Of a stretch of 32,000 nt of DNA, positions 2,045-17,443 are shown piece by piece. The DNA is from Vibrio vulnificus CMCP6 (GTDB taxonomy: Bacteria; Pseudomonadota; Gammaproteobacteria; Enterobacterales; Vibrionaceae): NCBI RefSeq assembly GCF_000039765.1, contig NC_004459.3, positions 2,181,127-2,213,126 on the forward strand. Reading direction: 5' to 3'. A model generated the notes under the pieces. It did no database searches. It saw only the letters and a list, made by a program, of their open reading frames with translations, and was not told the DNA's origin. Position 1 is the stretch's first letter; the number at the start of each line of letters is the position of its first letter. A program made the position numbers and the translations under genes.

Positions 2045-2235
2045 ATTTCTGGCGAATTAAACTACATCTTGCGTTTAAATTGGTTATTAATTTACATCTT
2101 TCAATTAAAAATGGTGCCAAAAACTACAAATTATACTGCTCTAATAGCGCGATGAACTGCATGTGAGTTTGTTTGTTGGTTCATGATGTCGTTATTTTGC
2201 TAATTTTGCAGTTTTTAATTTTATAGAGGAAGAAA

Positions 2236-2685
2236 ATGAAATCTCGTGCGCCATTTTGTATCCGTCATGCGGCAGCTGATACTTTTGCTATGGTGGTTTT
2301 TTGCTTTATCTCAGGGATGATTATCGAGATTCTGATTTCTGGAATGACTTTCCAGCAATCTCTGGCATCAAGAACGTTATCTATTCCGGTTAACATCGCG
2401 ATCGCGTGGCCTTATGGTGTGTTTCGTGATTGGGTTCTTCGCCAAGGTGCGCGTGTATCGACCAGTGGACTGATGAAAAACGTATCCGATTTAGTGGCGT
2501 ATGTGCTTTTTCAATCACCAGTCTACGCCGGTATTTTGCTTGCGGTAGGCGCATCGACAGAGCAGATCATCACGGCAGTGACCAGCAATGCGATTATCTC
2601 TTGCGGTATGGGCGTTCTGTACGGCTACTTCCTAGATATGTGTCGCCGTTGGTTTAAGGTTCCTGGCTACTATCAGCAAGCATAA
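2236..2685 (+). CDS. alaE: L-alanine exporter AlaE
   Basis: 149 aa, the same length as E. coli AlaE (YgaW). Recalled identity blocks: [12 protein letters not shown], SGMxFxQS, IPVNIxIAWPYG, AYVxFQSPVYAxILL, YGYFLDxCRRxFKV. An RBS (agagga) lies upstream. Confidence 0.85.
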
Positions 2686-2760
2686 TTGCTGGTAGATTGC
2701 TCGATTTAGCCAATTACTAGCCAACTAAACTCCTCATGGCGCTTTTTTTTAAAACTGGGC

Positions 2761-2789
2761 TTGACCAATCCCAAGATAATCATTAAATT
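2761..2789 (+). promoter_or_regulatory. candidate sigma70 promoter for tRNA-Ser
   Basis: TTGACC (2761-2766), a 17-nt spacer, then TAAATT (2784-2789), followed by a GC-rich discriminator (gcgcctcg) typical of stable-RNA promoters. It lies about 40 nt upstream of the tRNA. Confidence 0.4.
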
Positions 2790-2829
2790 AGCGCCTCGTT
2801 GGCACGAGTTGCCACACAAAATTTGATTC

Positions 2830-2917
2830 GGTGAGTTGTCCGAGTGGCTGAAGGAGCACGCCTGGAAAGTGTGTGTACGGCAACGTACCGAGAGTTCGAA
2901 TCTCTCACTCACCGCCA
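2830..2917 (+). tRNA. tRNA-Ser (anticodon GGA), long variable arm, encoded CCA
   Basis: GGTGAGTTGTCCGAGTGGCTGAAGGAGCACGCCTGGAAAGTGTGTGTACGGCAACGTACCGAGAGTTCGAATCTCTCACTCACCGCCA. The acceptor stem GGTGAGT pairs with ACTCACC. The anticodon loop is CTGGAAA. The T-arm is GAGAGTTCGAATCTCTC. The long extra arm is that of a class II tRNA. Confidence 0.92.
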
Positions 2918-2953
2918 CATTCTTGAAGAAAGACGTCCTAGGACGTCTTTTTT
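2897..2953 (+). repeat. left copy of island-bounding direct repeat (tRNA 3' end plus terminator)
   Basis: The 39-nt core ccacattcttgaagaaagacGtcctaggaCgtctttttt (2915-2953) recurs at 11758-11796 with two substitutions. The upstream cgaatctctc (2897-2906) matches cgagtctctc (11745-11754). Confidence 0.85.
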
Positions 2954-2954
2954 T
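2928..2954 (+). terminator. tRNA-Ser terminator (inside left direct repeat)
   Basis: Stem aagacgtc (2930-2937), loop ctag, stem gacgtctt (2942-2949), with the T-run continuing to 2954. Confidence 0.75.
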
Positions 2955-3381
2955 ATGCCTGTAAATTTGTTAAATCAATGACTTTAATTCATTGAAAGTC
3001 CAATGAAGTTCGATACAAGTTATCAACGACGAACTAAGTTTAAGAAAATACTCACGTCACGTTTAGGTGCCTTAACCACTCATCAAATCCGTTTGGGAAC
3101 AACCGTTTTCTAGCAGTTTAGAAAGGCTTTGATGTGATCGATAAATATCCCACACTCTATTGCAGGCCGATCTTGCTATCAGGCTATTCTGAGAGCGCTG
3201 CCTTTATCATTTTTCGTCCTAGCCATGAGCACGGATAAATCTTCGCCAGATCAAGGTTATAGAAACTTGATCAACAGCAAATTTACTCCAACATGTGGAC
3301 ATAAATCACGAAAGTTCGATTAAAACACGGAGAATATTGAGTATTATGTAACTCTATGAACATCCATATGAGACATAACTG

Positions 3382-3951
3382 TTGAACTTAGCGAAAGCCC
3401 TTAGCATTCTTTCAAAATCTTCACCTTATGCGGTGAGCACTGAGAGAGAGCAAAATCAAGATCATCTGGCTGATTACAAGCGCTACATCTACATCCAGAC
3501 AGATATAGAAACGGATTTCAAAAAGGCACTCCTATCTGCCAAGCCCAATCAAATCATCTTCCTATGTGGAAGTAGTGGCGATGGTAAATCTGAGATTTTG
3601 ACGCAGTATAGCCAGAAGCACAAAGCGACTCATGATTTCCACTTGGATGCGACTCACAGCTTCAACCCAAGCCAGACGGCTATTCATACTCTCGATCATC
3701 GATTTTCCGAGTTCAAACAAAGCAATAAACCTCTCGTGGTTGGCATCAACGTGGGTATGCTCGGCAACTACACGGAAGAAGGGGCTGGAGAGCATATCGA
3801 TGTTAAGAATGCAGCTCGGAGTTTTCTCGCTCGCAATCGCTCTGAAATTCCAGAGCAGTATGTGTTTTTGGATTTTGAAGACTATCCGAAGTTTACATTT
3901 AGTAACGAGGGTAGTGCATCTGATTTTGCGGAGCAGTTTCTAAAAAACTGA
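3382..3951 (+). CDS. P-loop NTPase of unknown family, possibly truncated or decaying
   Basis: 189 aa from a TTG start, with a TAA stop two codons upstream (3376-3378). Walker A is FLCGSSGDGKSEIL and a possible Walker B is YVFLDFED. The ORF ends right after an A6 run (3942-3947). The +1 frame then reads LTAQTLDNPFYVL to a stop at 3987-3989, a possible frameshifted continuation. Confidence 0.45.
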   Translation: MNLAKALSILSKSSPYAVSTEREQNQDHLADYKRYIYIQTDIETDFKKALLSAKPNQIIFLCGSSGDGKSEILTQYSQKHKATHDFHLDATHSFNPSQTAIHTLDHRFSEFKQSNKPLVVGINVGMLGNYTEEGAGEHIDVKNAARSFLARNRSEIPEQYVFLDFEDYPKFTFSNEGSASDFAEQFLKN

Positions 3952-4137
3952 CAGCTCAGACGCTTGATAACCCGTTTTATGTGCTTTAAGTGCGTTCAAT
4001 CGTATTGTCCTAAAGCATGTTGATTTTGTGGTTTTTGAAAAAATACTGGAGGGATTTTTGGGCCTTGTTGCTCTTATTGATCAAGTAACGTGAAGCTAAA
4101 GATGAGTTGCAGCATCACTAGCCGCAACTCACTGTAC

Positions 4138-4995
4138 TTAAGTGTAATCAAAGTATGCTGTCAATTGATGAGCTTCTGGTTGCGCTCTAAGTAATTTTTC
4201 ATCTTGCGTCGATCCCATACGGCGAAGGAAGTAATGAACTAAAGCTCTTCGGGTTGTTATTTCCAACTTACTATCTTCCATAGCGTAGTCGTCTGCAACA
4301 ACCACTCGCTGTTGCTCAGATAAGTAAGGATTAGGTGTAATCGTTAACTTAACTTGATGGTTCCAACTGTCATCGTGCTCTCGTGTCTTTGATGACTTAT
4401 CCATTAAGTCAGGTTCGTTTCTAAAGCGACTTAATACAAAATCTCGAAACTCATGTTTTTCTTCACAATATGCTCTTACATGCCACCTTATTCCATCATA
4501 GACTAAGCTGTGAGGCGCAATAATTCTACCTCGAACTTCAGGGGTAGAGAGTGACACATAGTCAATGTCTACGCGAAGATTAGCCCTTGCTGCCGCAATT
4601 AATCCTCGAACGATGTTCGGTGATATAGTCCTTTCAGGGACGTTCAATATAGTCGATTGAGCTTCCCCCCAGTTAAAGAACTCAAAGGTTTCTTCTTGGT
4701 TATATTGTTGATGGAGCATCAGCAAGTACTCATGAGCAGTCCCTTGAGTAAACAAAGGCTTAAAGTTGTCTGCTGGCCTGTAGCCTTTAATTGTCCTATC
4801 GAGTATCAATTGACCTTGGTTAGTTAAGCTAATGTACTTGTTGATATCCCTAGAAGCTTGTTGTCTTCCTATGTGAAAAGCATCACATAGATGATTTGTC
4901 GTGAGTCGACCCTCCCAAAGAGCAATGATCTCAATTAGTCGAAATCGTACTTGTTGGTCCCATTTGATATCTGCTTGACTCATGTTCGTGCTCAT
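4138..4995 (-). CDS. WYL-domain transcriptional regulator (BrxR/CapW-like architecture)
   Basis: N-terminal wHTH (LTTNHLCDAFHIGRQQASRDINKY). Central WYL-type motif (YDGIRWHVRAYCEEKHEFRDFVLSRF). C-terminal extension. Likely start is the ATG at 4995 (MSTNMSQ) or 4983 (MSQ), not the ORF-track start at 5046. It is divergent from the 5202 operon. Confidence 0.8.
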   Translation of the reverse strand: MSTNMSQADIKWDQQVRFRLIEIIALWEGRLTTNHLCDAFHIGRQQASRDINKYISLTNQGQLILDRTIKGYRPADNFKPLFTQGTAHEYLLMLHQQYNQEETFEFFNWGEAQSTILNVPERTISPNIVRGLIAAARANLRVDIDYVSLSTPEVRGRIIAPHSLVYDGIRWHVRAYCEEKHEFRDFVLSRFRNEPDLMDKSSKTREHDDSWNHQVKLTITPNPYLSEQQRVVVADDYAMEDSKLEITTRRALVHYFLRRMGSTQDEKLLRAQPEAHQLTAYFDYT

Positions 4996-5001
4996 AAATG
5001 T

Positions 5002-5048
5002 TACATGTTGATGTATACAGTATATACATGTAGCAATAAAGTACATAT
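5002..5048. promoter_or_regulatory. cluster of TACAT/ATGTA inverted motifs, candidate operator in the divergent promoter region
   Basis: The region reads ttACATGttgATGTAtacagtataTACATGTAgcaataaagTACATat. It contains 7-bp arms atgtata/tatacat with a 5-nt spacer, and a perfect 8-bp palindrome tacatgta. It lies between the regulator start and the operon. Confidence 0.3.
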
Positions 5049-5201
5049 ATTTATTGTGGATATTGGGAGGAGCACTAAAAGTCAGGAATCTTTACTGTGT
5101 GAGAGTCGATGGTATTGAAAGCTGTAACCTGATTTAGTGGCCACAAATTCAAACTGGTTGATTTTCAATTAAGAAAAACAACAAAACTCGAGACAAATAC
5201 G

Positions 5202-8200
5202 ATGATGTATGCCGGATTGACCAAAGTTATTGCTATAAATTCTTATCAGAAAAACAAGATGTTTTCTGAGTATTCTTTTGATGCTCCCACTCAGATCACT
5301 GGCGGTAACGGAGAAGGCAAAACATCACTGTTAAGGCTCATTCCGTTCTTTTATGGAGCGACTGGCACGCAGATCGTCAGAAAATCGAATGTTAATAAGC
5401 CCTTTGCAGAATGGTATTTACCACACAACAATAGTTATATTGTTTTCGAGTACATTACTGCTCGTGGTCAAGTTGCTCATGTCATTTGTTATCGAAACCT
5501 TAGTACTAAAGGTGGAGTTGTTTACCTTTTCGTTAAAGGTCAGTTTGAGCAGTCAATGATCATTAAACAAGATAGCGAAGACAAGCCTTACGCTATCGGC
5601 TGTACAAAGCTGGCTGCGGAGCTGAATGCTAACGGCTTACATTACGAATCACGTATTACTAGCGTCAAAGAGTATCGCGAAATTATCCAAAACATTAATG
5701 CAGGGAATTTGAGCAATCAGTTCCTGAGCTACTCTTTGTGCTCTGGTCGTCATGATGTCCGTCACATTGAAAAAATCACAGCGGCGTTGATTCAAGGTGA
5801 ATTCAATATGGCCGACACAAAGGCGCTTTTCCTGGATATCCTCGAACAAGGGAATAGCACATTAGAGTTTGGTGTAGATGCAAACAGAATTGAACAATGG
5901 TGTGATGATTACAACGGCCTAACTGCGTTCCTAAACAAAAAAGAAGCGTTCATTGACGCTATTGCGAACAATAAGCAGATTGCTTATCTAACCAATCAGC
6001 TAGCAAGTGCCTTAATAACTATTCGTGACGTGTCTGAAAGCCTTGATGGATCTCTTAAGACAACCGAACTGAAGCGCTCAGATTTTCTTGAAAACAGTGA
6101 CAAGCAGATTGGCGAAATTAATCAAGATAAGCTTGATAAAGAGGTTCAAAAGAGTGCTCTTCAACGCTCTATCACAAGTATCAACTCTGAGATCGAAGTA
6201 CATCACAGCAAGCTTATAACATACGAAAACAGTGGTTATCCAGAGCTGTCCGTCAAGCTTAAGCAATTGCCAGAAATGGAAGACAGGGTGGCACAACAAA
6301 GACAAAGTTACGCCAATCTTGAAACTAAGGTAAATGATGCCAAAGCAAAGTATGAGAAAGACAAACAAAGCCTTGTTAGTAAGTTCAACAAAGAAAAGTC
6401 TGACCTAACAGAGCAAAAACTTGATGCCGAAAAAGAGTGCAAGGTTAAAAAAGACAAGATAGACGATGTATATCAGCCACAGTTAAAGGAACTGACCCAA
6501 ACCCATACGAGTTTTATAGCGGATAAATCTCAGGCTCTTATGGAACATAAGGCTGAACTCGCCACTCAAAAACAGCGACTAAAGAACCCAGATATTGATG
6601 AGCTTCTCATTGAGCAGAGAGAGCTGTTGGAGTCTGAGAAGGACAGATTACAAGAACAAGTAGACACGTTAAAACACAAGACAACTGTGAGTGAGAAGGA
6701 AGGAGTCAACTTACAAACTAAACGTGAAAAGTTACTCGAAAGATTAGAGGCCACTCGTCGAAATATGCGCGATGCCGAAGCTAGGTTAAAAGTAGTCAGT
6801 AACCGATTAGACCCAGATTCAGGAACCTTGTTCTCGTTCCTGGAGGCTAATCGACAGGGATGGCAAAGCTCTCCACTTGGTCGTGTTCTTACCGATGAGC
6901 TTTTGATGGACACGACACTCAAGCCTTCTATGACTGAAGATTCAGGTTCAATGTACGATTTATATATCGATACGAGCAACCTAGCCGATTGTAGTGTCAC
7001 CAACAAAGCTGATGTAGAAGAGCAGGCTCAATTGATGGATCTTATCGGTGAGCTTGAAGATGCAGAGGCCGATTTCAACAAGCACATTTCGAAAAATGAT
7101 TCTGCTATTAAGCAGTCAGCGCTTGAGTTGTCACGACTACGCAATGAGCTGCGAAACGCTGAGGGTGACCTAGCACAAACTAAGATTAACCTTAAAAACA
7201 AGAAAATAGAGATTGCCCGTGCAAAAGAGGGCTTAGTCGAAAAAATTAATATAAGCATCAAATCGATTGAGAAAGCTATAGCCCTGATTGAACAGGAAAT
7301 TTCAGTGACGCGTGAACGTTTTGAAGAAGCAAAATTAGAGTTAAACAACGACAGGCTTACTCAAATTAGCAATGTTGAATCATCACTTGATCTCACGATC
7401 GGAGCTATAGACGAACTACTGGAAAAAAGGACTCTGACATTAGGCGAGAACAAACAGCGCATCAAAACGGAGTATGAACAGCGGTTGAGTGATCAAGGTA
7501 TTAGTGGCGAAATCTATCAATGCTACAAAGAAGAAATCGAATTGCTTGATAATGAGATCAAAAACTTAAAAGAGAAGTCTCATAAAATCAAAGAATACGA
7601 GACATGGCTTGCTGTTTATGAAGTGGATGATCCTAAGAGACGTGACGATCGCAATACTAAGGTCAAAGAGCTTGAAACGGTGCATCAAGAGATTAAATCT
7701 TTTGACATTAAACTGAAAGAGTTGAGAGCTAAAGTTCATCGAACCAAAAAAGAGTTTGATGAGAAGCTCTCTATCTTGAGAAACCACAAACAGCGAGCTG
7801 ACAGTGCAATCTCTCGCCTAAGTAACTATGTGATGTTTGAGGGCGAAGAAGGCAGCCAAGAAGCGCTCGATTATAACGGCGATTTAAATTCACTATTGAG
7901 TGATGTAGAGAGCAAACTCCCAGAGTTAGAGAGACTTACTAAGCTACGTAAAAAAGATATACAACAGATGGAAACTATAACTCTCAACCTTGGTGGCGGG
8001 GAGCTGTATCGTTTCTGGAATGAAAGCAGCCGAAACACCATTTCAGAGGATATTGTTGCTAGTGACTCTAAGCGAATAGATATTCTAGAAATCATCATGA
8101 ATGACATTATTCCTCAAGTGACCAGCATAACAATTGAAAGCGCGGTCAACATGGGGCGTATGCTCGTTGACTTCAAGCATCGGTTACTTGGCTTCGACCG

Positions 8201-8864
8201 TGATATTAAAAAACTTGGTCGTAATATCTCTGAACAAGTAAAGCTCAATAACACGTTCTCTGTAGTTGGTTCTATTGACATTAACGTTGAGAGTTCGCTT
8301 TCCAAACTACAAGGTTGGCAAGATATTATTAACTTCTCTGAGATTTACGAAGAGTGGGATAAAACGGGATCTGCTGAGCTACCAACCAAAGAGTTTTTTA
8401 ATGCGTTAAGTACACTGACGTACCACATTAGTGCCGAGAAAGTTAAGAAGCCTACTGAACTGTTTGATATCAAATTTGAAGTCATCGAGAACAACCAGCG
8501 TAAAACGGCCAAAACAGATAAAGATATGCGTGATTTAGCCAGTAATGGCACGAACTTGCTTATTCAATCCATGTTGTATTTAGCGCTACTGACGCAGCAA
8601 CGTGGAGCAAGTCGACTATCAATAACTTACCCAACCGATGAGATTGGTAAGCTGACGGCAGAAAACCAAGCCAAACTGCTCAAAATGATGGGGGCACACA
8701 ACTTCAATGTTATCGCGGCTCAACCCGATGGCAATAATCGTACAGCTAATTTATTCAAGTACCTGTACCACTTAACGCCTTACAAGAACATTTTCAATAA
8801 ACCTAAAGTTAGCAAACTCGCGTTAGCCAAAGCCGCTGAAACTAGCACAGGAGTAGAAGCATGA
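5202..8864 (+). CDS. SMC/MukB-like coiled-coil ABC ATPase (JetC/MksB-like)
   Basis: 1220 aa. Walker A is GGNGEGKT (aa 34-41, nt 5301-5324). Two long K/E/Q/L-rich arms (about aa 270-535 and 610-1000) flank a central non-coiled segment (about aa 537-605, nt 6810-7016). The C-terminal head has ASNGT in the signature position (nt 8541 onward), followed about 30 aa later by Walker B ITYPTDE (D1146/E1147, nt 8637-8642). Confidence 0.8.
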   Translation: MMYAGLTKVIAINSYQKNKMFSEYSFDAPTQITGGNGEGKTSLLRLIPFFYGATGTQIVRKSNVNKPFAEWYLPHNNSYIVFEYITARGQVAHVICYRNLSTKGGVVYLFVKGQFEQSMIIKQDSEDKPYAIGCTKLAAELNANGLHYESRITSVKEYREIIQNINAGNLSNQFLSYSLCSGRHDVRHIEKITAALIQGEFNMADTKALFLDILEQGNSTLEFGVDANRIEQWCDDYNGLTAFLNKKEAFIDAIANNKQIAYLTNQLASALITIRDVSESLDGSLKTTELKRSDFLENSDKQIGEINQDKLDKEVQKSALQRSITSINSEIEVHHSKLITYENSGYPELSVKLKQLPEMEDRVAQQRQSYANLETKVNDAKAKYEKDKQSLVSKFNKEKSDLTEQKLDAEKECKVKKDKIDDVYQPQLKELTQTHTSFIADKSQALMEHKAELATQKQRLKNPDIDELLIEQRELLESEKDRLQEQVDTLKHKTTVSEKEGVNLQTKREKLLERLEATRRNMRDAEARLKVVSNRLDPDSGTLFSFLEANRQGWQSSPLGRVLTDELLMDTTLKPSMTEDSGSMYDLYIDTSNLADCSVTNKADVEEQAQLMDLIGELEDAEADFNKHISKNDSAIKQSALELSRLRNELRNAEGDLAQTKINLKNKKIEIARAKEGLVEKINISIKSIEKAIALIEQEISVTRERFEEAKLELNNDRLTQISNVESSLDLTIGAIDELLEKRTLTLGENKQRIKTEYEQRLSDQGISGEIYQCYKEEIELLDNEIKNLKEKSHKIKEYETWLAVYEVDDPKRRDDRNTKVKELETVHQEIKSFDIKLKELRAKVHRTKKEFDEKLSILRNHKQRADSAISRLSNYVMFEGEEGSQEALDYNGDLNSLLSDVESKLPELERLTKLRKKDIQQMETITLNLGGGELYRFWNESSRNTISEDIVASDSKRIDILEIIMNDIIPQVTSITIESAVNMGRMLVDFKHRLLGFDRDIKKLGRNISEQVKLNNTFSVVGSIDINVESSLSKLQGWQDIINFSEIYEEWDKTGSAELPTKEFFNALSTLTYHISAEKVKKPTELFDIKFEVIENNQRKTAKTDKDMRDLASNGTNLLIQSMLYLALLTQQRGASRLSITYPTDEIGKLTAENQAKLLKMMGAHNFNVIAAQPDGNNRTANLFKYLYHLTPYKNIFNKPKVSKLALAKAAETSTGVEA

Positions 8865-9499
8865 AGCCAGTATCACTAGTTCTAGAATCTCTACTTAGTG
8901 GCCGTTTTATCTGCCCAGCCACTGATCGTGAAGCTTACAAGACACTTAAAGAGGACCGAACACACCGAGAAATCAATCAAGCGTTGACTCTTATGGGCCG
9001 CGAGCTCCAATGTACGAGCAGAACCAGCGCCTATTATGTCACCTATAAAAGTATCGACGATCACAATCGTCGTCAGGTGACTACGTTGATGAGTAATGTA
9101 CACGGTATCATTCGACCTGTAGTTAAATTCGTGTCGACAGTCAGTGAGGCTGCTCAAGTTGAAGCGGTGATGGTTGGTGGTGATGAGTTAAATGTGCCTG
9201 TGCTGAGTGCGCAAATCCAATCGTCTCCTAGCTTGATGGAGAAACTCGATAGTATTTACCGACTCCCAAAAGTGAGTCGGAAAAAAGTGCGTGACAGTGC
9301 AGCGGATAAACTCAATGTGGTTGTCGAATTTCTGGTTAAGGAAGGCGTGGCTCATTTAGTAAACAAAGAGCGCCAACTCTATGTGATGACGGGAAAATTA
9401 GACTTTGTTTACGAGGTGCTCGATTTTATCGATACGCATGAAAAGATCGTTGAGACAGTTAACAAAGCAAACGAGAGTCAAGGGGAGTTCGACTTTTGA
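8861..9499 (+). CDS. uncharacterised 212-aa subunit (size and position of a JetB/MksE-type KITE protein; homology not shown)
   Basis: Its start overlaps the upstream stop as ATGA (8861-8864), which suggests translational coupling. No motif is recognisable by eye. The assignment rests on operon context only. Confidence 0.5.
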   Translation: MKPVSLVLESLLSGRFICPATDREAYKTLKEDRTHREINQALTLMGRELQCTSRTSAYYVTYKSIDDHNRRQVTTLMSNVHGIIRPVVKFVSTVSEAAQVEAVMVGGDELNVPVLSAQIQSSPSLMEKLDSIYRLPKVSRKKVRDSAADKLNVVVEFLVKEGVAHLVNKERQLYVMTGKLDFVYEVLDFIDTHEKIVETVNKANESQGEFDF

Positions 9500-9514
9500 T
9501 GAGCCCTCAAAACA

Positions 9515-10798
9515 ATGGGAAACATGGGTGGTGTTAACCACATGCTTCGTTTAATCAGCCAAGCAAAGGACACATTAACGCATGTTTTTGAAAATGGCAC
9601 GATACGTGAAACTCATGAAAACGCTAATGACCTACGTAAATTAAAAGAAGCCCGTGTCGTTATCGTGACAAGCCGCGGCTACCGTGTGCACCCTAAGATG
9701 GAAGCGCTGATGAACTATTTCCTTGAAACGGAAGCGAGTTCATTTCTTGGGACACAACATGCTGAGCGCATTCCAGAAATTCAGAGCTTAACGCAAGAAT
9801 ACCTGGAAGCTAAATTAAATGGCAAAAGAGAACAAGAGGCGGATAGGTTTAATAGCCTTGAAGGTGTCGTTTATGAAATCACAATGGACTTGCAAGAGTC
9901 TTGTCGTCGTTTAAGAAATCGTATCAGTTATGACTTTGGTTATGGCCATACGCTCACTCAGAAACAAAAAGAGAACCAAGTTGCTATAGAGCAAGCTGAA
10001 AAGCTTGTTACTGGCATGAAAGCTTTCTCTTTTAAGTTGTTGAGTGAAATGGCTGGAGATAACTCAGAGCTCAACACCTTGTTTTGTGCTGAAATGCACA
10101 GTGCGATTCGTAGTTGCCAACAAGAGCTCGGGTCTATCCTAATTCAACTTCGAGCTTTGATGCTGAAATATCGTAACCGCGAGCGAGATAAGGATCTGAT
10201 CAATGCCTTTGATCGGTTTATTGATCAAGAGCCACACTGGACCCCAAGTGACGATTTGATTTTGCCTGATGAGGTAGCAAAGCACGATGGTATACCGATG
10301 TTTTGGCTTTCAGAGCCTATACAATTTGCGCATCACCCAAATCCTGATGATTTGGACCAAGAGCCGGAATTGGCCGATATTGTTGAAAAAATTACGACAC
10401 AGCCTTCCGAACAAGAAGATCTTCCTGTTGTTGAAGAAGCTGAGCGCCGAAAATTGACACTTGATGTTGAAATACAAGAGTTGATTGAAGCGGACATTGA
10501 TTCTCATTGCGATAGCTTTTTTGCTGAAGCCTTTATTGGCAAGGGAAAAACCAGTATTTCCGCTTTGGAATATTACGAGAAAATCAATAATGATTTGCCG
10601 GAAGATCTTGACCCGCTCACTTGTGCTAAAGACGTGTGGCTATTTAGCGTGCTTAATTTCCATAGTTCAATGCTTCCCGAAGATAGCAAAGGCTTTACCG
10701 TTGAGCCTATCGGGTCTTATACCTATTTAGCAAAAGGTAGCAATATAGGTTACGGAAACCTTCACTTAGAAGATGTGTCTATAGCGAGGAAACTGTGA
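9515..10798 (+). CDS. uncharacterised 427-aa subunit (possible kleisin analogue, JetA/MksF-sized; homology not shown)
   Basis: It begins 15 nt after the previous stop. Alternative ATG starts lie at 9524 and 9542. The central part looks helix-rich and there is an acidic linker (DDLDQEPELADIVEKITTQPSEQEDLPVVEEAE). The functional call rests on context only. Confidence 0.5.
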   Translation: MGNMGGVNHMLRLISQAKDTLTHVFENGTIRETHENANDLRKLKEARVVIVTSRGYRVHPKMEALMNYFLETEASSFLGTQHAERIPEIQSLTQEYLEAKLNGKREQEADRFNSLEGVVYEITMDLQESCRRLRNRISYDFGYGHTLTQKQKENQVAIEQAEKLVTGMKAFSFKLLSEMAGDNSELNTLFCAEMHSAIRSCQQELGSILIQLRALMLKYRNRERDKDLINAFDRFIDQEPHWTPSDDLILPDEVAKHDGIPMFWLSEPIQFAHHPNPDDLDQEPELADIVEKITTQPSEQEDLPVVEEAERRKLTLDVEIQELIEADIDSHCDSFFAEAFIGKGKTSISALEYYEKINNDLPEDLDPLTCAKDVWLFSVLNFHSSMLPEDSKGFTVEPIGSYTYLAKGSNIGYGNLHLEDVSIARKL

Positions 10799-11688
10799 GT
10801 AGAATTATTGATGATCTAACTGGTAGTGATTTAAATCGGCTAAAACAACTTTTCTCTCCAGCAAAGGTTAATAAAGGTGCCAATGTAGCGCTAAGTGGCG
10901 TGTTTGATACTTTTCACCGTGATTTTAGCGTTGGGATCGCCAGAGGTGAAAATTTGCAACTGACGCCTAGAGATATGCGTCAAATTAGGAAGGTGATTAA
11001 AGAACAATCAGGCTTTGATCTTTTAACTGACCCTATCCCGAACTCTCGAACGGAGATGGCTCAGTTCTTTCCAAACGAGAAGCTAAGCTTAAGGCCTGTC
11101 AAAGACAAGATCATTAAAATTTATGGGATTTTGTCCACGAACATAAATGGCAAATCATATGACTTAGAAAAAGGCATGAACATTGAAATAGCTCTAAGTC
11201 ATTTGAAGAGCATTGAGCACAGCCAAGTTGTGATTGTTGAAAACTATGAGGCGTTTTCTAAGTTTAGACTGGTACCAGCCGACTTGGGGCCTAACCCACT
11301 TATCGTTTACCGGGGAGATAAGGACACTGGAGTAATATCAAAAGAAATTGCATTGGCTTTTCCAGACATAGAGCTTATAGCTTGGTTTGACACCGATCCT
11401 CAAGGTATTGCTTTAGCTTTATCATCGGGAGCGGTTTATATGCTGCTTCCACATTTATCAATAGATACTCTTAAAGAACTTGGGCGCTCAGAGTTATTTA
11501 CGGATCAATACCAAAACTGGAATCGAGTCTCAAAGCTTATCCCTCCTGAGTTAGAGTTCATAATGTCTAAGTTGGAGAAAGGGATCACCCAAGAATCAAT
11601 TGTGGCAAACAGAATAGTCCTGAAACTGCATCAATTTCAGTTATGTGGAGAGTCTGGAGGCCAAATCGAGGAATGCCTAAAGCCGTGA
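10795..11688 (+). CDS. short JetD/MksG-like Toprim-domain protein (putative nuclease)
   Basis: The GTG start overlaps the upstream stop as GTGA (10795-10798), with aggaaa upstream. Toprim-type motifs: VVIVENYEAF (E149, nt 11239-11241), VYRGD, and AWFDTDPQGIALAL (D199/D201, nt 11389-11397). At 297 aa it is shorter than my recollection of canonical JetD. Confidence 0.65.
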   Translation: MSRIIDDLTGSDLNRLKQLFSPAKVNKGANVALSGVFDTFHRDFSVGIARGENLQLTPRDMRQIRKVIKEQSGFDLLTDPIPNSRTEMAQFFPNEKLSLRPVKDKIIKIYGILSTNINGKSYDLEKGMNIEIALSHLKSIEHSQVVIVENYEAFSKFRLVPADLGPNPLIVYRGDKDTGVISKEIALAFPDIELIAWFDTDPQGIALALSSGAVYMLLPHLSIDTLKELGRSELFTDQYQNWNRVSKLIPPELEFIMSKLEKGITQESIVANRIVLKLHQFQLCGESGGQIEECLKP

Positions 11689-11744: not shown

Positions 11745-11796
11745 CGAGTCTCTCTCCCCACATTCTTGAAGAAAGACATCCTAGGATGTCTTTTTT
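11745..11796 (+). repeat. right copy of island-bounding direct repeat (degenerate tRNA 3' end plus terminator)
   Basis: The sequence is cgagtctctctccccacattcttgaagaaagacAtcctaggaTgtctttttt. The two differences from the left copy's 39-nt core sit at paired positions of the hairpin stem and are compensatory (a G:C pair becomes A:T). Confidence 0.85.
11771..11796 (+). terminator. terminator hairpin in right repeat copy
   Basis: Stem aagacatc (11773-11780), loop ctag, stem gatgtctt (11785-11792), with the T-run continuing to 11796. Confidence 0.6.
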
Positions 11797-11916: not shown

Positions 11917-14823
11917 TTACTGCGTAATAACCTTTTTCAGCCTCGCAAATGTCTTCATCGAGTCATTGGCAGGCATTAGCTCGTAATCTGGGTTGTTCGC
12001 TTTTAGCCAGTAGCGCCCTTGTGCATCCTTCTGCACGACACGTAGTAGGTACTGATTCTCGCCCGAGCTATCTTGGATTTCGATAGCCATGGTGTTGCCT
12101 GTGATGGAGCCAGCGGATATTGGCGTCACAAACTCGAGTAACAGCAAATCGCCATCTAAAATGGGTGTCTTGCCACCGTTCATCGAATTGCCAGAGGCGC
12201 TGGCCAAGAAATGTTTTTGAGGATTGAGGTTAGCCATATCAACGGGGATGTGTTCAACCTCTTCGTGAGATCCAGTCTTAAAATGACCACAAGCGATCTT
12301 AAGGTTTGGGTAGTAGGGCAACAAGGTTCCTTCATTGGCTGCCTCTGCTGGAGTGGTCGGTTGTGCCACTGTTTGATGAGTCTGTTTAGGTTGCCTGTCT
12401 GAATACTGAGCAAGTTGTAGGTCCACGAGCTCTTTGACAAAGTCATGGAATGCTTGCTGCTGGAGTGGGGCGACATCAAAGTCAGCTTTGAGCTTTCCGT
12501 CGGCAAGCTTAAACCAAACTCGACTCTTGGTTTTGTTTCCACCTACAAATGCGTTGATAGGGTTACTAAGCCAATATTTCAACCATGCCTGAGAGTCTGC
12601 GGTTAAGCGTTGGTTGATCTCTGACAGGTCGGATGCCTTTAGCTTGGGATAACGAGACAGCACATGCCAACTTTTACTCGCGAGCACTTCGATACTCGGG
12701 GCATCTCTGAACCCATCCAGCTCGAGGTAGGCTTCAAGCAATATCGCTTTAAAACTCTTGGTCATGCTTGCTTTTTGGATGGCATTGGCAAAGAAGTCAC
12801 GATGTTCGCGAACGAGGTAATCTAACTCCGGATCCTTGTCCATACTTGCGACCAGCTCTAGCCAACTACCGTGCTGCTTGTTCACTTTGGCCAGGTCGTA
12901 ACCTGCTCGGTAATACTCGACTGCACGAGGTCGATGGCCCAAATGGTTGGTCAAATGTTCAAATTCTTCTTGAGCAGAATAGCGAAGCTGCTTTGTCAGC
13001 GTTTGCCAAAAATCGATGATTTTCGGATCGATGTTGGTAAAGCAACCTTTGCCTAATTCGGGCCGTGTTTGTGACTTATCACTCAACTGTTCGAGTGAGC
13101 TTGATGTGCTGATCCCTAAAATTTCTTTCTTGTTCAAAAACGAGCGATGGTTCCCAATGAAATCCAATACCACCAAGTGTGATTTGTCCGTGTGACGACG
13201 AAGTCCTCGGCCCAATTGTTGAATGAAAACGATGTTGGATTCAGTCGGGCGCAGCATTAGCACGGTATCGATTGAGGGTAAATCAGTCCCTTCGTTGAAC
13301 AGATCAACCGAGAAGAGAATTTGAATTTCTCCTTTATCCAGCATGCTTAACGCTTCATTACGACGAATGGAGGAATCACTGTGTACAGAAAGCGCCCTCA
13401 AGCCTTTATCTGCAAAAGTTTGATTGAAGTGCTGCGCCATAAAATCAGCGTGCTTTTTGGATACACAAAACGCCAAGGTGCGAGTTTGTTGCCTGTTTTG
13501 CCAATGTTTAAAAATATGTTTGGCACGTCGTGTGGTTGCAAACTGGGCGTCAAGGGCGGTGGGGTCAAATTTACCATTTCGCCATGGGATCTCTTGATAA
13601 TCGACCGAGTCATCCCAGATGCCGTAGTAGTGAAAAGGCACAAGAATTTCATCATTGATACCATGCACTAAGTTACGTTCAAACACTAAGTTGTCGTGGC
13701 AAAGCGAGAGGATGTTCGCTTGGTCTGTCCGTTCTGGAGTTGCTGTTAGCCCAAGTAAAAATTTAGGCTCGAAGTAACTGAGAATATTGAGATAGGTTTT
13801 GGTGCTGGCATGATGAAACTCATCTACCACGATGTAATCAAAATGGTCGGAAGCAAAGTGTTTGAGGTGTGCTGCTTTACCCAAAGTTTGCACTGAGGCA
13901 AACAGCATCTCTTTGTTTCTTTCTTTGCTCTTACCGTGATAGTAGCCTGCGGATTTTTGCGGCCAAAGTTTCGCGAAAGTCATCAGTGCTTGAGTCAGAA
14001 TTTCTTCGCGGTGAGCAACGAACAGAACTCGCTTTGCTTCCAGTTGTTTGGCATCAAACGCAGATAACCAAGTTTTCCCCATGCCAGTGCCCATCACAAC
14101 CAATCCACGCACATTTCCTTTTTGACGAGTCTCGCTGAGTCGCTGCAATGCGTCTAACTGTGCCGAGTTGGGTGAATATTCTTCGTTATCCAATAGCGTC
14201 GTATCACCGACTGCTGAAAGCTTGGGTGGTGTTCTTCTTTTGATGTAGCTGTCAATCCATTCATCCGTCAGCAATATGGCAGATGGATGATGAAACAGTT
14301 TGTCAAACTGGGTTCGGATATTGTGAAACTGCGCCGCTTGAAGGGAGTTGTCTGGTTGCTGGTAATCTAAACGTAGGCACCATTCATGGGCATCGGTGAG
14401 TGCGGTTTTACTGATGTTGTTAGAGCCAACAAAAGCAGCTCCTTGGTAAATGGAACGAGCTTCATCGCTGCGAACAAATATGTACGATTTGAGGTGAAAA
14501 CTGCGGTTATTGGTTTCAAAAATCTTAATTTCTATCTCATCTCCTTCTAGTTCGATCAGAGAACGCAACGCAATAGGATGAGTGATGTGCAGGTAATCTG
14601 ACGTTAGGATGCGCAGCTTTAAGGCCTGTTGGCGTGACTTTTTACGTTCAATCGCCTCGTGAATGCTTGGTAGAAGCAAGTCTAGACCAGAGGGTTGAAT
14701 AAAGGACACTGCAATCTCTATCTCGGTAGCATGGTTGATCGCGTGGATCAGCTGCGGCAGCAGAGGGTCTTCACCACCAGTGGTTAATAAGCTGTCTTTG
14801 ATAGTAAGCGACTGATTTGGCAT
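11917..14823 (-). CDS. PLD(HKD)-nuclease / SF2 DEAH-type helicase fusion with C-terminal LexA/UmuD (S24)-like domain
   Basis: 968 aa. HKD motif: FHLKSYIF...FVGSNNIS (H110/K112). Helicase motifs: I VVMGTGMGKT, II IVVDEFHH, III GLTATPER, VI QQLGRGLRR. A region of about 270 aa follows the helicase core. The C-terminus reads LPYYPNLKIACGHF...ASGNSMNGGKTPILDGDLLLL...YLLRVV...LKANNPDY, which matches the S24 fold pattern. Confidence 0.8.
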   Translation of the reverse strand: MPNQSLTIKDSLLTTGGEDPLLPQLIHAINHATEIEIAVSFIQPSGLDLLLPSIHEAIERKKSRQQALKLRILTSDYLHITHPIALRSLIELEGDEIEIKIFETNNRSFHLKSYIFVRSDEARSIYQGAAFVGSNNISKTALTDAHEWCLRLDYQQPDNSLQAAQFHNIRTQFDKLFHHPSAILLTDEWIDSYIKRRTPPKLSAVGDTTLLDNEEYSPNSAQLDALQRLSETRQKGNVRGLVVMGTGMGKTWLSAFDAKQLEAKRVLFVAHREEILTQALMTFAKLWPQKSAGYYHGKSKERNKEMLFASVQTLGKAAHLKHFASDHFDYIVVDEFHHASTKTYLNILSYFEPKFLLGLTATPERTDQANILSLCHDNLVFERNLVHGINDEILVPFHYYGIWDDSVDYQEIPWRNGKFDPTALDAQFATTRRAKHIFKHWQNRQQTRTLAFCVSKKHADFMAQHFNQTFADKGLRALSVHSDSSIRRNEALSMLDKGEIQILFSVDLFNEGTDLPSIDTVLMLRPTESNIVFIQQLGRGLRRHTDKSHLVVLDFIGNHRSFLNKKEILGISTSSSLEQLSDKSQTRPELGKGCFTNIDPKIIDFWQTLTKQLRYSAQEEFEHLTNHLGHRPRAVEYYRAGYDLAKVNKQHGSWLELVASMDKDPELDYLVREHRDFFANAIQKASMTKSFKAILLEAYLELDGFRDAPSIEVLASKSWHVLSRYPKLKASDLSEINQRLTADSQAWLKYWLSNPINAFVGGNKTKSRVWFKLADGKLKADFDVAPLQQQAFHDFVKELVDLQLAQYSDRQPKQTHQTVAQPTTPAEAANEGTLLPYYPNLKIACGHFKTGSHEEVEHIPVDMANLNPQKHFLASASGNSMNGGKTPILDGDLLLLEFVTPISAGSITGNTMAIEIQDSSGENQYLLRVVQKDAQGRYWLKANNPDYELMPANDSMKTFARLKKVITQ

Positions 14824-17126: not shown

Positions 17127-17443
17127 TCTGGTGTTTCCTCATCTTTATTACTGCGCTGGCCAGAGGCTCTCTGCCTTTTCTTTCCTTGCAGTTTTGCCAG
17201 CTGTAAGGGAGAAATTTCTTGTTTAGGGATAAAGAGATCAATTTGTTCTGTAAGGTCTAATGCCATTAATATCGCGATCATGATATCGAGCTGCACTTTT
17301 CCTTTTTCTGCATTCAAAACTGTTTTGCGGGCAATGCCAGCAATTTCTGCAACTTCAGATTGTGTTAGGTCTCGATTGAGTCGAGCTTGCTTCAACCTAT
17401 CGCCGATCTCTTCTGCTAATGCTGCGGCTGTTACATGTTTCAC
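17120..17443 (-). CDS. hipB: HipB antitoxin (XRE-family HTH)
   Basis: 107 aa. The HTH is LTQSEVAEIAGIARKTVLNAEKGK. The basic/acidic tail ends in ETPEW, like the terminal Trp of E. coli HipB (NLEW). It overlaps hipA. Confidence 0.85.
   Translation of the reverse strand: MKHVTAAALAEEIGDRLKQARLNRDLTQSEVAEIAGIARKTVLNAEKGKVQLDIMIAILMALDLTEQIDLFIPKQEISPLQLAKLQGKKRQRASGQRSNKDEETPEW

What the first reader, a model, noticed from the sequence alone, without database searches (positions are those of the whole stretch)
5202..11688. Four-gene SMC-like ATPase plus Toprim operon: Wadjet/Mks-like parts in a non-canonical arrangement
Seen in sequence: four same-strand ORFs of 1220, 212, 427 and 297 aa. They are joined by an ATGA overlap (8861-8864), a 15-nt gap, and a GTGA overlap (10795-10798). 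ORF1 has the split ABC head of an SMC/MukB-type protein. Its Walker A is GGNGEGKT, Walker B is YPTDE near the C-terminus, and two long coiled-coil arms flank a central hinge-like segment. ORF4 carries Toprim-type motifs, a Glu in VVIVENYEAF and DxD in WFDTDPQG, as in JetD/MksG. Established knowledge: the described bacterial systems that pair an SMC-like ATPase and two small accessory subunits with a JetD-type Toprim nuclease are Wadjet (JetABCD) and MksBEFG. These restrict plasmids. Their usual order is kleisin (A), KITE (B), SMC (C), nuclease (D). Here the order is C-like, B-sized, A-sized, D-like. The D-like protein is short. I can recognise no JetA/JetB-type motifs in the two middle proteins. 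Inference: this is either a permuted, strongly divergent Wadjet subtype, or a separate family that shares only the motor and the Toprim module. Its position in an AT-rich tRNA-linked island next to a WYL regulator fits a defence role.
Basis: partly seen in the sequence, partly recalled or inferred. Interest (0 to 1): 0.85.

Follow-up and report, generated by a model that had tools for sequence, protein, structure and literature searches.

The report
Gene-order-permuted Wadjet (MksBEFG) plasmid-defence operon
This is a real four-gene SMC-motor-plus-nuclease operon from the Wadjet/Mks anti-plasmid group, in a rare clade with the motor gene first; that clade is listed in a 2025 supplementary table but has never been tested experimentally.

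Summary
The four co-directional ORFs exist as described. They form a cassette of fixed order and gene sizes in more than 50 bacterial species.

- **ORF1** is a full-length DUF3584 SMC-like ATPase (MksB/JetC role).
- **ORF2** is a KITE protein. Its relatives hit Pfam MksE and the JetB family DUF4194.
- **ORF3** has no sequence family. Its low-confidence model matches MukF best, so it is the likely kleisin.
- **ORF4** (DUF7281) has a JetD/MksG/Topo VI-A-type Toprim domain with invariant Glu and DxD, but lacks the DUF3322 arm of type I JetD.

Bürmann et al. 2025 (Cell, Data S1) list 11 "BEFG" and 1 "BEF" operon clusters among 869. These form one clade with 100% bootstrap support. My family profiles hit all four genes of one listed operon.

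No experiment exists on the nuclease-bearing form. The window's proteins get no convincing PADLOC v2 Jet match.

The divergent BrxR-type regulator and the neighbouring restriction, CBASS and Tn7-like genes favour plasmid or foreign-DNA restriction. A nuclease-less Shewanella relative has cisplatin and motility phenotypes.

This copy carries a 1-nt insertion near the mksF start.

The parts
4138..5046 (-). Divergent BrxR-family WYL transcriptional regulator. The maximal ORF is 302 aa; identical contigs aa, equivalent to window 4138-4983.
   Evidence: Pfam WYL E 1e-11. PADLOC WYL E 3.8e-24. Precomputed WHD_BrxR + WYL + BrxR_CTD on the identical gene in L060-L063. Present upstream and divergent in all 8 Vibrionaceae loci, and not detected next to the cassette in the loci from other taxa.
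5047..5201 (.). 155-bp divergent intergenic region between brxR and mksB; presumed promoter and operator region.
   Evidence: Sequence read. One weak sigma-70-like match at 5023-5051; the number of matches in the region is no higher than in shuffled sequence. Its function is inferred from position only.
5202..8864 (+). mksB/jetC-like SMC ATPase (DUF3584), 1220 aa. Walker A is G34-T41 (K40), signature S1114/G1116, Walker B D1146-E1147.
   Evidence: Pfam DUF3584 E 4e-143 over residues 12-1191 of the protein and positions 3-1189 of the 1191-position model. 9 of 9 homologues hit DUF3584. Invariant motif residues. Only weak PADLOC JetC/LmuB hits. The family profile hits the listed MksB of A. indicus pB18-1 at E 1.4e-139.
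8861..9499 (+). mksE/jetB-like KITE subunit, 212 aa. Overlaps mksB by ATGA.
   Evidence: Pfam MksE E 2.8e-5, 25 bits against a cutoff of 27, covering residues 7-174. At family level, 13 of 16 hit MksE (best 2.9e-10) and 11 of 16 hit DUF4194 (best 3.6e-6). The profile hits the listed MksE of pB18-1 at E 1.1e-31.
9499..10798 (+). mksF-like putative kleisin. The natural start is ATG 9499 (TGATG overlap with the mksE stop). A 1-nt insertion at about 9526 shifts the frame. The ORF as read is 9515-10798 (427 aa); intact relatives are 432 aa.
   Evidence: Frameshift shown. No Pfam, PADLOC or PDB sequence match, even for 77 family members. The family has 197 representatives at 50% identity, nearly all of the 150 listed being about 400-470 aa. 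AF2 model has pLDDT 60: N-terminal helical part, disordered 234-326, C-terminal helix/strand domain. Foldseek top 3 PDB hits are MukF (3euh_A E 0.021, prob 0.93; 3euh_B; 1t98_A), and a chain of the E. coli JetABC entry 8as8 ranks 10th. The 90% cluster of family representative P0062 (hit by the ORF3-family profile at E 1.7e-95) contains PML85184.1, listed as MksF by Bürmann et al..
10795..11688 (+). mksG/jetD-like Toprim nuclease (DUF7281), 297 aa. Overlaps mksF by GTGA. Toprim Glu is E149; DxD is D199/D201. Invariant NPLxxYRGD at 167-175.
   Evidence: Pfam DUF7281 E 8.9e-23. At family level: 23 of 23 DUF7281, 10 of 23 JetD_C (best 3.2e-7), 5 of 23 DUF2399, 4 of 23 TOP6A-Spo11_Toprim (best 3.1e-4). 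PADLOC JetD1/2/3 hits, best 1.8e-7. Invariant residues. Foldseek top hit is Topo VI-A 1d3y_B, E 2.4e-3. MksG 8b7f is among the two best PDB profile hits (E 1.1-1.4, not significant) and aligns at VENxDSF and GDxDxxG.
11769..11796 (+). Terminator-like hairpin with a U-run after mksG, lying between convergent genes.
   Evidence: RNA fold -13.8 kcal/mol, z -4.1, 0 of 200 shuffles fold as well. Sequence read.

Best explanation
The locus is a five-gene module: a BrxR-type WYL regulator transcribed divergently from mksB-mksE-mksF-mksG. It belongs to the Wadjet/Mks group of SMC complexes.

**Inferred mechanism, by homology with type I and II Wadjet**
1. An MksB dimer (ABC ATPase heads, coiled-coil arms, small hinge) is closed by the MukF-type kleisin MksF, which carries a dimer of the KITE protein MksE.
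2. The complex loads on DNA and extrudes loops using ATP.
3. On small circular DNA, extrusion runs to completion or stalls.
4. The dimeric Topo VI-A-type Toprim nuclease MksG is then licensed to cut, so plasmids and other circular invaders are destroyed.
5. BrxR represses or tunes expression from the shared intergenic region.

**Shown here**
- The identity of three subunits by profile matches, and of the fourth by fold match and published orthology.
- Intact, invariant catalytic motifs.
- Strict conservation of the cassette.
- Membership of the published BEFG clade.
- A defence-island context.

**Inferred, not shown**
- Complex assembly.
- Loop extrusion.
- Circular-DNA specificity.
- BrxR control.

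This particular copy has a 1-nt insertion at codon 10-11 of mksF. It may therefore make an N-terminally shortened MksF by reinitiation, or be inactive, unless the extra base is a sequencing error.
For: **Conservation**
- The cassette has the same order and sizes in 50 or more species of Vibrionaceae, Methylococcales, Betaproteobacteria, Flavobacteriales, Alteromonadales and Halomonas/Vreelandella.

**Subunits**
- ORF1 is DUF3584 end to end, with invariant Walker A, signature and Walker B residues.
- ORF2's family matches MksE and DUF4194.
- ORF4's family matches JetD_C, DUF2399, the Topo VI-A/Spo11 Toprim family and PADLOC JetD models, with invariant E149, D199 and D201.
- ORF3's model matches MukF best.

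**Published catalogue**
- Bürmann et al. 2025 (PMC7617805) Data S1 lists BEFG operons with matching gene sizes. Their MksB sequences form one clade with 100% bootstrap support within the tree of Wadjet-group and other SMC proteins.
- My four family profiles hit the four genes of listed operon NZ_CP044456.1 at E 1.4e-139, 1.1e-31, 2e-44 and 6.5e-22.
- The cluster of P0062 contains the listed MksF PML85184.1.

**Defence context**
- BrxR-type regulator.
- DptF fragment, type IV REase-like helicase, methyltransferase and HipBA in the window.
- Type I R-M beside the cassette in other Vibrio contigs.
- CBASS and a Tn7-like TnsD gene beside it on an IncC plasmid.

**Mechanistic precedent**
- Type I and II Wadjet cleave circular DNA in an ATP- and JetD-dependent way (PMC10586767; 10.1101/2025.03.10.642339).
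Against: **No direct test**
- No functional data exist for any nuclease-bearing member of this clade.

**Weak sequence links**
- The window's own proteins fail or barely reach curated thresholds: MksE scores 25 bits against a cutoff of 27, and JetD_C scores E 0.02.
- None of the four proteins gets a convincing PADLOC Jet hit.
- The kleisin assignment rests on a model with pLDDT 60 and Foldseek E-values of 0.02-0.09, plus another group's iterative profiles.

**Evidence pointing to chromosomal roles**
- A nuclease-less BEF relative in Shewanella has chromosomal-type phenotypes, cisplatin sensitivity and motility (10.1101/072470).
- In 27 or more Halomonas/Vreelandella species the BEFG operon sits at one conserved site beside GntR, deacetylase and SBP genes, not in an island.

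**Structural and sequence differences**
- MksG lacks the DUF3322 arm through which type I JetD docks on JetABC. Activation may therefore differ.
- The window's mksF is frameshifted.
Confidence: 0.6

Rival explanations
1. The complex works mainly on the host chromosome. It would be a MukBEF/MksBEF-like condensin or DNA-damage-tolerance factor, with the Toprim protein processing chromosomal substrates such as cross-link-stalled or entangled DNA rather than invaders.
For: - Price et al. (10.1101/072470) report that the DUF3584 gene Sama_0592 is important for cisplatin resistance and motility in three Shewanella species, and cofit with the two downstream hypothetical genes.
- The S. amazonensis SB2B locus carries DUF3584 followed by genes of 221 and 406 aa, hit by the B, E and F profiles at E 4e-286, 1e-64 and 5e-138. 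This fits the reported gene set; the locus tags were not checked.
- Halomonas/Vreelandella BEFG operons share one conserved, non-island neighbourhood in 27 or more species.
Against: - The Shewanella operon has no mksG within 8 kb, so its phenotype says nothing about the nuclease-bearing form.
- Published reviews hold that nuclease loss accompanies the switch to chromosomal roles in MukBEF and MksBEF (PMC10586767, PMC7617805).
- The window's copy is in a variable island with a BrxR regulator and restriction genes, and the same cassette travels on plasmids and in a Tn7-like element.
Confidence: 0.15
2. It is a defence system whose main targets are phages or other mobile elements rather than small plasmids. 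For example, it could sense circularised or replicating phage genomes, possibly with abortive-infection-like self-damage.
For: - BrxR-family regulators sit beside the cassette here.
- The cassette sits beside anti-phage systems: CBASS, type I R-M and a type IV REase-like gene.
- The short MksG lacks the type I docking arm, so licensing could differ.
Against: - Every characterised Wadjet system acts on circular plasmid DNA, not on phages (PMC10586767; 10.1101/2025.03.10.642339).
- Nothing in the sequence points to a phage sensor.
Confidence: 0.1
3. This particular copy is a decaying, non-functional remnant, whatever the family does.
For: - There is a 1-nt insertion at codon 10-11 of mksF relative to otherwise identical contigs.
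- Relatives show decay too: mksB is split in L013 and L050, mksB and mksG are truncated in L052, and an IS256-family element interrupts mksB on pVIM-Exn692.
Against: - All four ORFs are otherwise full length with intact motifs.
- In-frame ATGs at 9515, 9524 and 9542 could allow reinitiation a few bases from the premature stop. The first ~10 residues are not conserved in the family.
- An extra G in a G-run is a common sequencing error.
Confidence: 0.15

Closest known systems
BEFG clade of the Wadjet/Mks group, as listed in Bürmann et al. 2025 (Cell; PMC7617805, Data S1)
   Same: - Same gene order (B-E-F-G) and same gene sizes (about 1212/208/418/282 aa in V. breoganii).
- All four family profiles hit a listed operon.
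- The cluster of family representative P0062 contains the listed MksF PML85184.1.
   Different: - The window's operon itself is not in the list. It belongs to a BrxR-linked Vibrionaceae subgroup.
- The paper catalogues the clade only. The text passages I retrieved from the paper do not mention it, and no experiments are reported on it.
Wadjet type I (JetABCD / MksBEFG / EptABCD; E. coli GF4-3, P. aeruginosa PA14, C. glutamicum)
   Same: - Four subunits: SMC ATPase, kleisin, KITE and a Topo VI-A-type Toprim nuclease.
- Co-directional, overlapping genes.
- Conserved ATPase motifs and Toprim Glu/DxD motifs.
   Different: - Gene order is F-E-B-G (A-B-C-D) there and B-E-F-G here.
- Type I MksG/JetD has DUF3322 plus DUF2220 (C. 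glutamicum MksG). Here the protein is 281-297 aa with no DUF3322 hit.
- The JetA family DUF3375 is absent.
- PADLOC Jet HMMs barely register.
Wadjet type III and neighbouring FEBG clades with short MksG
   Same: - JetD3 model PDLC00591 is the PADLOC model hit by the most ORF4-family members (12 of 23).
- Sister clades in the published MksB tree have MksG of 267-282 aa.
   Different: - Those operons keep the FEBG order, and most of those checked have shorter MksB.
- Sequence similarity is at the limit of HMM detection.
MukBEF / MksBEF nuclease-less condensins, including the Shewanella DUF3584 operon (Sama_0592-0594)
   Same: - SMC-kleisin-KITE core.
- The Shewanella operon is a true orthologue of the window's B, E and F genes, in the same B-E-F order.
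   Different: - They have no Toprim nuclease, sit in a housekeeping context, and give chromosomal or DNA-damage phenotypes.
- The window has mksG and lies in a defence island.
Lamassu (LmuB SMC-like ATPase)
   Same: ORF1's N-terminal half gives a weak PADLOC LmuB hit (E 2.1e-7).
   Different: - There is no LmuA effector and no LmuC.
- KITE, kleisin-like and JetD-like partners are present instead.
- The LmuB hit covers only the head and part of the coiled coil.

Membership tests
Wadjet/Mks group (JetABCD / MksBEFG) | SMC-type ABC ATPase with Walker A, signature motif, Walker B, long arms and a hinge | tested here: met
   DUF3584 matched end to end, E 4e-143. K40, S1114, G1116, D1146 and E1147 are invariant in 9 homologues. 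Conserved blocks lie at the two ends and at 543-575. Direct JetC HMM hits are weak only, best 4e-6 in the family.
Wadjet/Mks group (JetABCD / MksBEFG) | KITE subunit of the MksE/JetB/MukE type | tested here: met
   13 of 16 family members hit Pfam MksE (best 2.9e-10) and 11 of 16 hit DUF4194 (best 3.6e-6). The window protein alone scores 25 bits, just under the cutoff of 27.
Wadjet/Mks group (JetABCD / MksBEFG) | Kleisin of the MukF/MksF/JetA type that bridges SMC neck and cap | tested here: inconclusive
   - No Pfam, PADLOC or PDB sequence match for 77 members.
- The AF2 model is weak, pLDDT 60. Its top 3 PDB matches are nonetheless MukF, with prob 0.82-0.93 and E 0.02-0.09.
- An orthologue is labelled MksF in Bürmann Data S1.
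- Bridging of neck and cap was not tested.
Wadjet/Mks group (JetABCD / MksBEFG) | JetD/MksG nuclease with a Topo VI-A-type Toprim domain (metal-binding Glu and DxD) | tested here: met
   10 of 23 family members hit JetD_C (best 3.2e-7), 5 hit DUF2399 and 4 hit TOP6A-Spo11_Toprim. PADLOC JetD1-3 hits. E149, D199 and D201 are invariant. Foldseek top hit is Topo VI-A. The window protein alone scores JetD_C E 0.02.
Wadjet/Mks group (JetABCD / MksBEFG) | Placement of the SMC subunit inside the Mks/Wadjet group in a phylogeny | tested here: met
   - I built no tree of my own.
- The 12 BEF(G) MksB sequences form one clade with 100% bootstrap support among FEBG clades in the published tree.
- The window family's B profile hits one listed MksB at E 1.4e-139.
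Wadjet/Mks group (JetABCD / MksBEFG) | ATP- and nuclease-dependent restriction of circular plasmid DNA | not testable with these tools
   This needs transformation or retention assays and in-vitro cleavage assays.
Wadjet types I-III as currently defined and annotated | Operon order kleisin-KITE-SMC-nuclease (or nuclease first) | tested here: not met
   The order here is SMC-KITE-kleisin-nuclease. mksFEBG is described as the conserved order. In Data S1 the counts are FEBG 609, GFEB 155, FEB 93, BEFG 11 and BEF 1.
Wadjet types I-III as currently defined and annotated | Type I domain set: JetA DUF3375, and JetD with a DUF3322 N-terminal arm plus DUF2220 | tested here: not met
   No DUF3375 hit among 77 ORF3 relatives. 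No DUF3322 hit among 23 ORF4 relatives. ORF4 is 281-297 aa.
Wadjet types I-III as currently defined and annotated | Recognition by PADLOC v2 Jet HMMs | tested here: not met
   For the window proteins: JetC3 E 0.0028 (coiled coil only), JetB1 E 0.0013, no JetA hit and no JetD hit. DefenseFinder could not be run.
MukBEF/MksBEF nuclease-less condensins | SMC-kleisin-KITE operon without an associated Toprim nuclease | tested here: not met
   mksG is present and overlaps mksF. The nuclease-less form exists in Shewanella and is listed for Ruminobacter.
Lamassu | LmuB with an LmuA effector (and usually LmuC) | tested here: not met
   Only a partial LmuB-type hit on ORF1 (E 2.1e-7, residues 13-539). 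No PADLOC LmuA or LmuC hit on any of the nine island proteins scanned.

The most novel reading that the evidence does not exclude
The BEFG clade is a functionally distinct fourth Wadjet type. Its short MksG lacks the type I docking arm and would be licensed in a different way.

The most novel reading not excluded is that the nuclease-bearing complex also, or mainly, acts on the host chromosome in DNA-damage tolerance. Two observations leave this open:
- The cisplatin phenotype of the Shewanella BEF orthologue.
- The fixed, non-island chromosomal position of BEFG in 27 or more Halomonas/Vreelandella species.

That would make it an SMC-Toprim machine for chromosome repair rather than immunity.
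Probability: 0.15. Interest if true: 0.75.

Novelty: new variant of a known kind. Interest (0 to 1): 0.45.

Why it matters
**State of the field**
- Wadjet is the only known SMC complex that measures DNA topology or size and then cuts.
- Only type I, and lately type II, have been studied. The literature still speaks of three types (10.1101/2025.03.10.642339).

**What this clade offers**
- It is a compact fourth arrangement with very divergent subunits, and the window's four proteins get no convincing PADLOC v2 Jet match. Defence inventories of Vibrio, Acinetobacter, Psychrobacter, Halomonas and IncC plasmids may therefore under-count it.
- It contains three forms:
  - island- and plasmid-borne BEFG with a BrxR regulator;
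  - BEFG at a fixed chromosomal site in Halomonas;
  - nuclease-less BEF in Shewanella, which has measured DNA-damage phenotypes.
- This gives a natural series for testing the idea that chromosome-organising MukBEF-like complexes arose from defence systems by losing the nuclease.

**Limit**
- The practical gain is modest unless experiments show a new licensing mechanism or a new substrate.

Tried and rejected
**Searches that found nothing useful**
- Direct phmmer of each of the four proteins against PDB sequences gave nothing relevant.
- Profile searches against PDB for the B, E and F families gave only coiled-coil or designed-protein noise.
- For G, MksG 8b7f appeared only at E 1.1-1.4. That is suggestive motif alignment, not statistical proof.
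- A second word-index search with the ORF3 alignment found no new homologues.
- A megablast search of E. coli genomes found no match.

**Weak models and unavailable tools**
- AF2 models were weak (pLDDT 68.7 for ORF4, 60.2 for ORF3) because the alignments allowed for prediction were shallow. The fold matches are therefore supporting evidence only.
- Petrushenko 2011, Rybenkov 2014 and Doron 2018 are not held in the library. I could not check whether the 2011 Mks survey already noted this subfamily.

**Readings rejected**
- Lamassu was considered because of the LmuB hit, and rejected because the partner proteins are of the KITE, kleisin-like and JetD types.
- DUF3581, upstream of the Shewanella operon, was considered as a replacement nuclease. 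The G profile does not hit it. It is not called next to the cassette in the identical-sequence Vibrio contigs L060-L063, and the upstream ORFs tested in Halomonas are GntR, deacetylase and SBP genes.
- The PLD-helicase-S24 gene and the methyltransferase downstream were considered as extra subunits. They were rejected because the three other Vibrionaceae loci whose downstream genes I identified carry type I R-M genes there instead.

**Left as conjecture**
- Equating invariant Y172 with the proposed MksG Tyr258 rests only on spacing from the Toprim Glu (23 against 22 residues). It could not be aligned.

Full report
**1. Observation**

The window carries four co-directional ORFs at 5202-8864 (1220 aa), 8861-9499 (212 aa), 9515-10798 (427 aa) and 10795-11688 (297 aa). 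The stated ATGA and GTGA overlaps are there.

- In ORF1: Walker A (K40), signature S1114/G1116, and Walker B D1146-E1147.
- In ORF4: E149, D199 and D201, plus an NPLxxYRGD block.

One detail needs correcting. The 15-nt gap before ORF3 exists only because the window has one extra G (about position 9526) compared with otherwise identical contigs and all relatives. In relatives mksF starts at the ATG overlapping the mksE stop (TGATG, window 9499) and encodes 432 aa. In the window that frame ends after 12 codons, and the long ORF resumes at 9515.

A hairpin with a U-run follows ORF4 at 11769-11796 (-13.8 kcal/mol, z -4.1).

**2. What the proteins are**

*ORF1.* It matches Pfam DUF3584 end to end (E 4e-143). 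All nine homologues tested do the same. PADLOC JetC and LmuB models give only weak, partial hits.

*ORF2.* Alone it scores just under the Pfam MksE cutoff (25 against 27 bits). Across its family, 13 of 16 members hit MksE (best 2.9e-10) and 11 of 16 hit the JetB family DUF4194. It is therefore a KITE subunit.

*ORF4.* It is DUF7281. Across 23 relatives:
- 10 hit JetD_C (best 3.2e-7), 5 hit DUF2399 and 4 hit the TOP6A/Spo11 Toprim family.
- PADLOC JetD1, JetD2 and JetD3 models are hit, best 1.8e-7.
- None hits DUF3322, the N-terminal arm of type I JetD/MksG.

Its moderate AF2 model (pLDDT 68.7) matches Topo VI-A best in the PDB (E 2.4e-3). C. glutamicum MksG (8b7f) is among the two best profile hits. 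The E-value is not significant (1.1-1.4), but the alignment falls exactly on VENxDSF and GDxDxxG.

*ORF3.* It has no Pfam, PADLOC or PDB sequence relative, even when 77 family members are scanned. The family has 197 representatives at 50% identity, and nearly all of the 150 listed are about 400-470 aa. The AF2 model is weak (pLDDT 60). It shows an N-terminal helical region with long helices, a disordered stretch at 234-326 and a small C-terminal helix/strand domain. Its three best PDB matches are all MukF (prob 0.82-0.93, E 0.02-0.09), and a chain of the E. coli JetABC entry 8as8 ranks tenth. This supports the kleisin role but does not prove it.

**3. Conservation and relatives**

A genome scan with the ORF4 alignment returned 55 loci. 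In essentially all loci with enough flanking sequence, the same four genes occur in the same order and with the same sizes. The taxa are Vibrionaceae, Methylococcales, Methylotenera, Dechloromonas/Azonexus, a Flavobacteriales MAG, Paraglaciecola, Alishewanella and about 35 Halomonas/Vreelandella species.

The divergent WYL gene accompanies the cassette only in Vibrionaceae. It is a BrxR-family regulator with WHD_BrxR, WYL and BrxR_CTD domains.

Neighbourhoods differ between groups:
- In 27 or more Halomonas/Vreelandella species the operon sits at one conserved site after GntR-family and deacetylase genes.
- In Vibrionaceae the neighbours vary and are defence genes. They include type I R-M. In the window they are a DptF fragment, a PLD-helicase type IV REase-like protein, a methyltransferase and HipBA.
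- On the IncC plasmid pVIM-Exn692 the WYL-BEFG cassette lies next to a Tn7-like TnsD gene and a type II CBASS. Its mksB is interrupted by an IS256-family element.
- Twelve plasmid records carry an ORF4 relative.

**4. Is it already known?**

The literature describes three Wadjet types. The usual order is kleisin-KITE-SMC-nuclease, with mksFEBG called conserved.

However, Bürmann et al. 2025 (Cell, PMC7617805) ran six rounds of profile search for Mks operons and deposited the result as Data S1. That table lists FEBG 609, GFEB 155, FEB 93, BEFG 11 and BEF 1.

The twelve BEF(G) entries come from Psychrobacter, Acinetobacter, Vibrio breoganii, Ferribacterium, Ferrimonas, Paraferrimonas, Methylomonas, Psychromonas and Ruminobacter. 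Their gene sizes match the window's. Their MksB sequences form one clade with 100% bootstrap support in the deposited tree. The neighbouring clades are FEBG operons with short MksG of 267-282 aa.

I linked the window to this clade in two ways:
- Profiles built from the window's relatives hit the four genes of the listed A. indicus pB18-1 operon at E 1.4e-139 (B), 1.1e-31 (E), 2e-44 (F) and 6.5e-22 (G).
- Family representative P0062, hit by the ORF3-family profile at E 1.7e-95, has a 90% cluster that contains PML85184.1, the listed V. breoganii MksF.

The family is therefore catalogued as a Wadjet-group member with subunits assigned. The text passages I retrieved from that paper do not mention the clade, and I found no paper that names or tests it.

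**5. A nuclease-less orthologue with phenotypes**

Price et al. (10.1101/072470) reported on DUF3584 in three Shewanella species, for example Sama_0592. It is important for cisplatin resistance and motility, and is cofit with two adjacent hypothetical genes.

The S. amazonensis SB2B locus reads DUF3581, then DUF3584 (1226 aa), then genes of 221 aa and 406 aa. This fits the reported gene set; I did not check the locus tags. The B, E and F profiles hit these genes at E 4e-286, 1e-64 and 5e-138. No G gene lies within 8 kb.

So the clade contains both nuclease-bearing and nuclease-less forms. This parallels the published view that MukBEF and MksBEF are Wadjet-group members that lost the nuclease.

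**6. Mechanism**

Best-supported reading, confidence about 0.6. MksB, MksF and MksE form a MukBEF-like loop-extruding complex. Together with the Toprim nuclease MksG it restricts circular foreign DNA, under BrxR control.

- Shown: component homology, intact and invariant catalytic residues, cassette conservation, clade membership and defence context.
- Inferred: assembly, loop extrusion, substrate choice and regulation.

The armless MksG suggests that the docking and licensing interface differs from type I. In type I the N-terminal sequences of the JetD arm-CAP domain connect JetD to JetABC.

Rivals:
- A chromosomal or DNA-damage role (0.15).
- Phage rather than plasmid targeting (0.1).
- Independently of the other two, inactivity of this copy because of the mksF frameshift (0.15).

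**7. Verdict**

The novelty claim must come down. The arrangement is rare (12 of 869 catalogued clusters) and uncharacterised, and the window's proteins get no convincing PADLOC v2 Jet match. But it is already recorded in a published dataset, and it is mechanistically a variant of a known kind.

Interest is 0.45. It would be higher if experiments show a new licensing mode or a chromosomal function for the nuclease-bearing form.

Noticed in passing
window 9499-9542: There is a 1-nt insertion (an extra G in CATGGGTGG) at codon 10-11 of mksF, compared with identical contigs L060-L062 and all relatives. The natural start frame ends after 12 codons. In-frame ATGs at 9515, 9524 and 9542 could allow reinitiation. 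It may be a sequencing error in a G-run.
   Followed up: yes
window 11917-14823 (-): A 968-aa protein combines a PLD-like nuclease domain, an SF2 helicase (ResIII + Helicase_C; PADLOC type IV mREase E 7.8e-93) and a C-terminal LexA-like S24 peptidase domain. A 195-aa SAM methyltransferase (14838-15425, -) lies next to it. The S24 fusion is unusual for a restriction helicase. The pair travels with the BEFG cassette in L060-L063, whereas other Vibrionaceae loci (L002, L003, L005) have type I R-M genes downstream instead.
   Followed up: partly
window 3382-3951 (+): A 189-aa N-terminal fragment of the phosphorothioation-dependent restriction protein DptF/DndF (models are 504-530 positions long) lies just after tRNA-Ser (2830-2917). 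It is probably a remnant of an earlier Dnd/Dpt defence cargo at this tRNA-linked site.
   Followed up: no
window 15795-17443 (-): A HipA (443 aa) and HTH/HipB-like (107 aa) toxin-antitoxin pair lies at the far end of the island. Housekeeping-type genes (zinc ribbon, GNAT, AAA_28, MCP) follow from about 18 kb.
   Followed up: no
L064 (E. hormaechei IncC plasmid pVIM-Exn692), 944-9849 and 10183-16340: The WYL-mksBEFG cassette (ORF4 61% identical to the window's) lies next to a Tn7-like TnsD gene, beside a CapH/CapP-like regulator pair and a type II CBASS (CD-NTase, E1/ThiF, JAB, SAVED). mksB is split by an IS256-family ISSod4 insertion, so a putative anti-plasmid system is inactivated on a conjugative resistance plasmid.
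   Followed up: partly
L057 (Shewanella amazonensis SB2B CP000507.1), 2722-9221: A nuclease-less B-E-F orthologue is preceded by a DUF3581 gene (233 aa) and followed by a hairpin-like inverted repeat. UniProt and NCBI label the MksF orthologue 'phosphoenolpyruvate carboxylase', which looks like a propagated misannotation.
   Followed up: partly
L016-L055 (Halomonas/Vreelandella loci), about 2100-3900 upstream of mksB: GntR/FCD regulator and histone-deacetylase-family genes lie on the same strand immediately upstream of mksBEFG in 27 species. I did not test whether they are co-transcribed or just conserved neighbours.
   Followed up: partly
window 10795-11688, residue Y172 of ORF4: An invariant Tyr in the NPLxxYRGD block lies 23 residues after the Toprim Glu. 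This is similar to the position of Tyr258 (22 residues after E236), which Weiss et al. 2023 discuss as a possible catalytic residue of MksG. The equivalence rests on spacing only and could not be aligned.
   Followed up: partly
L013, L050, L052: mksB is split or truncated in three relatives, and mksG is also truncated in L052. This suggests recurrent decay of the system.
   Followed up: no
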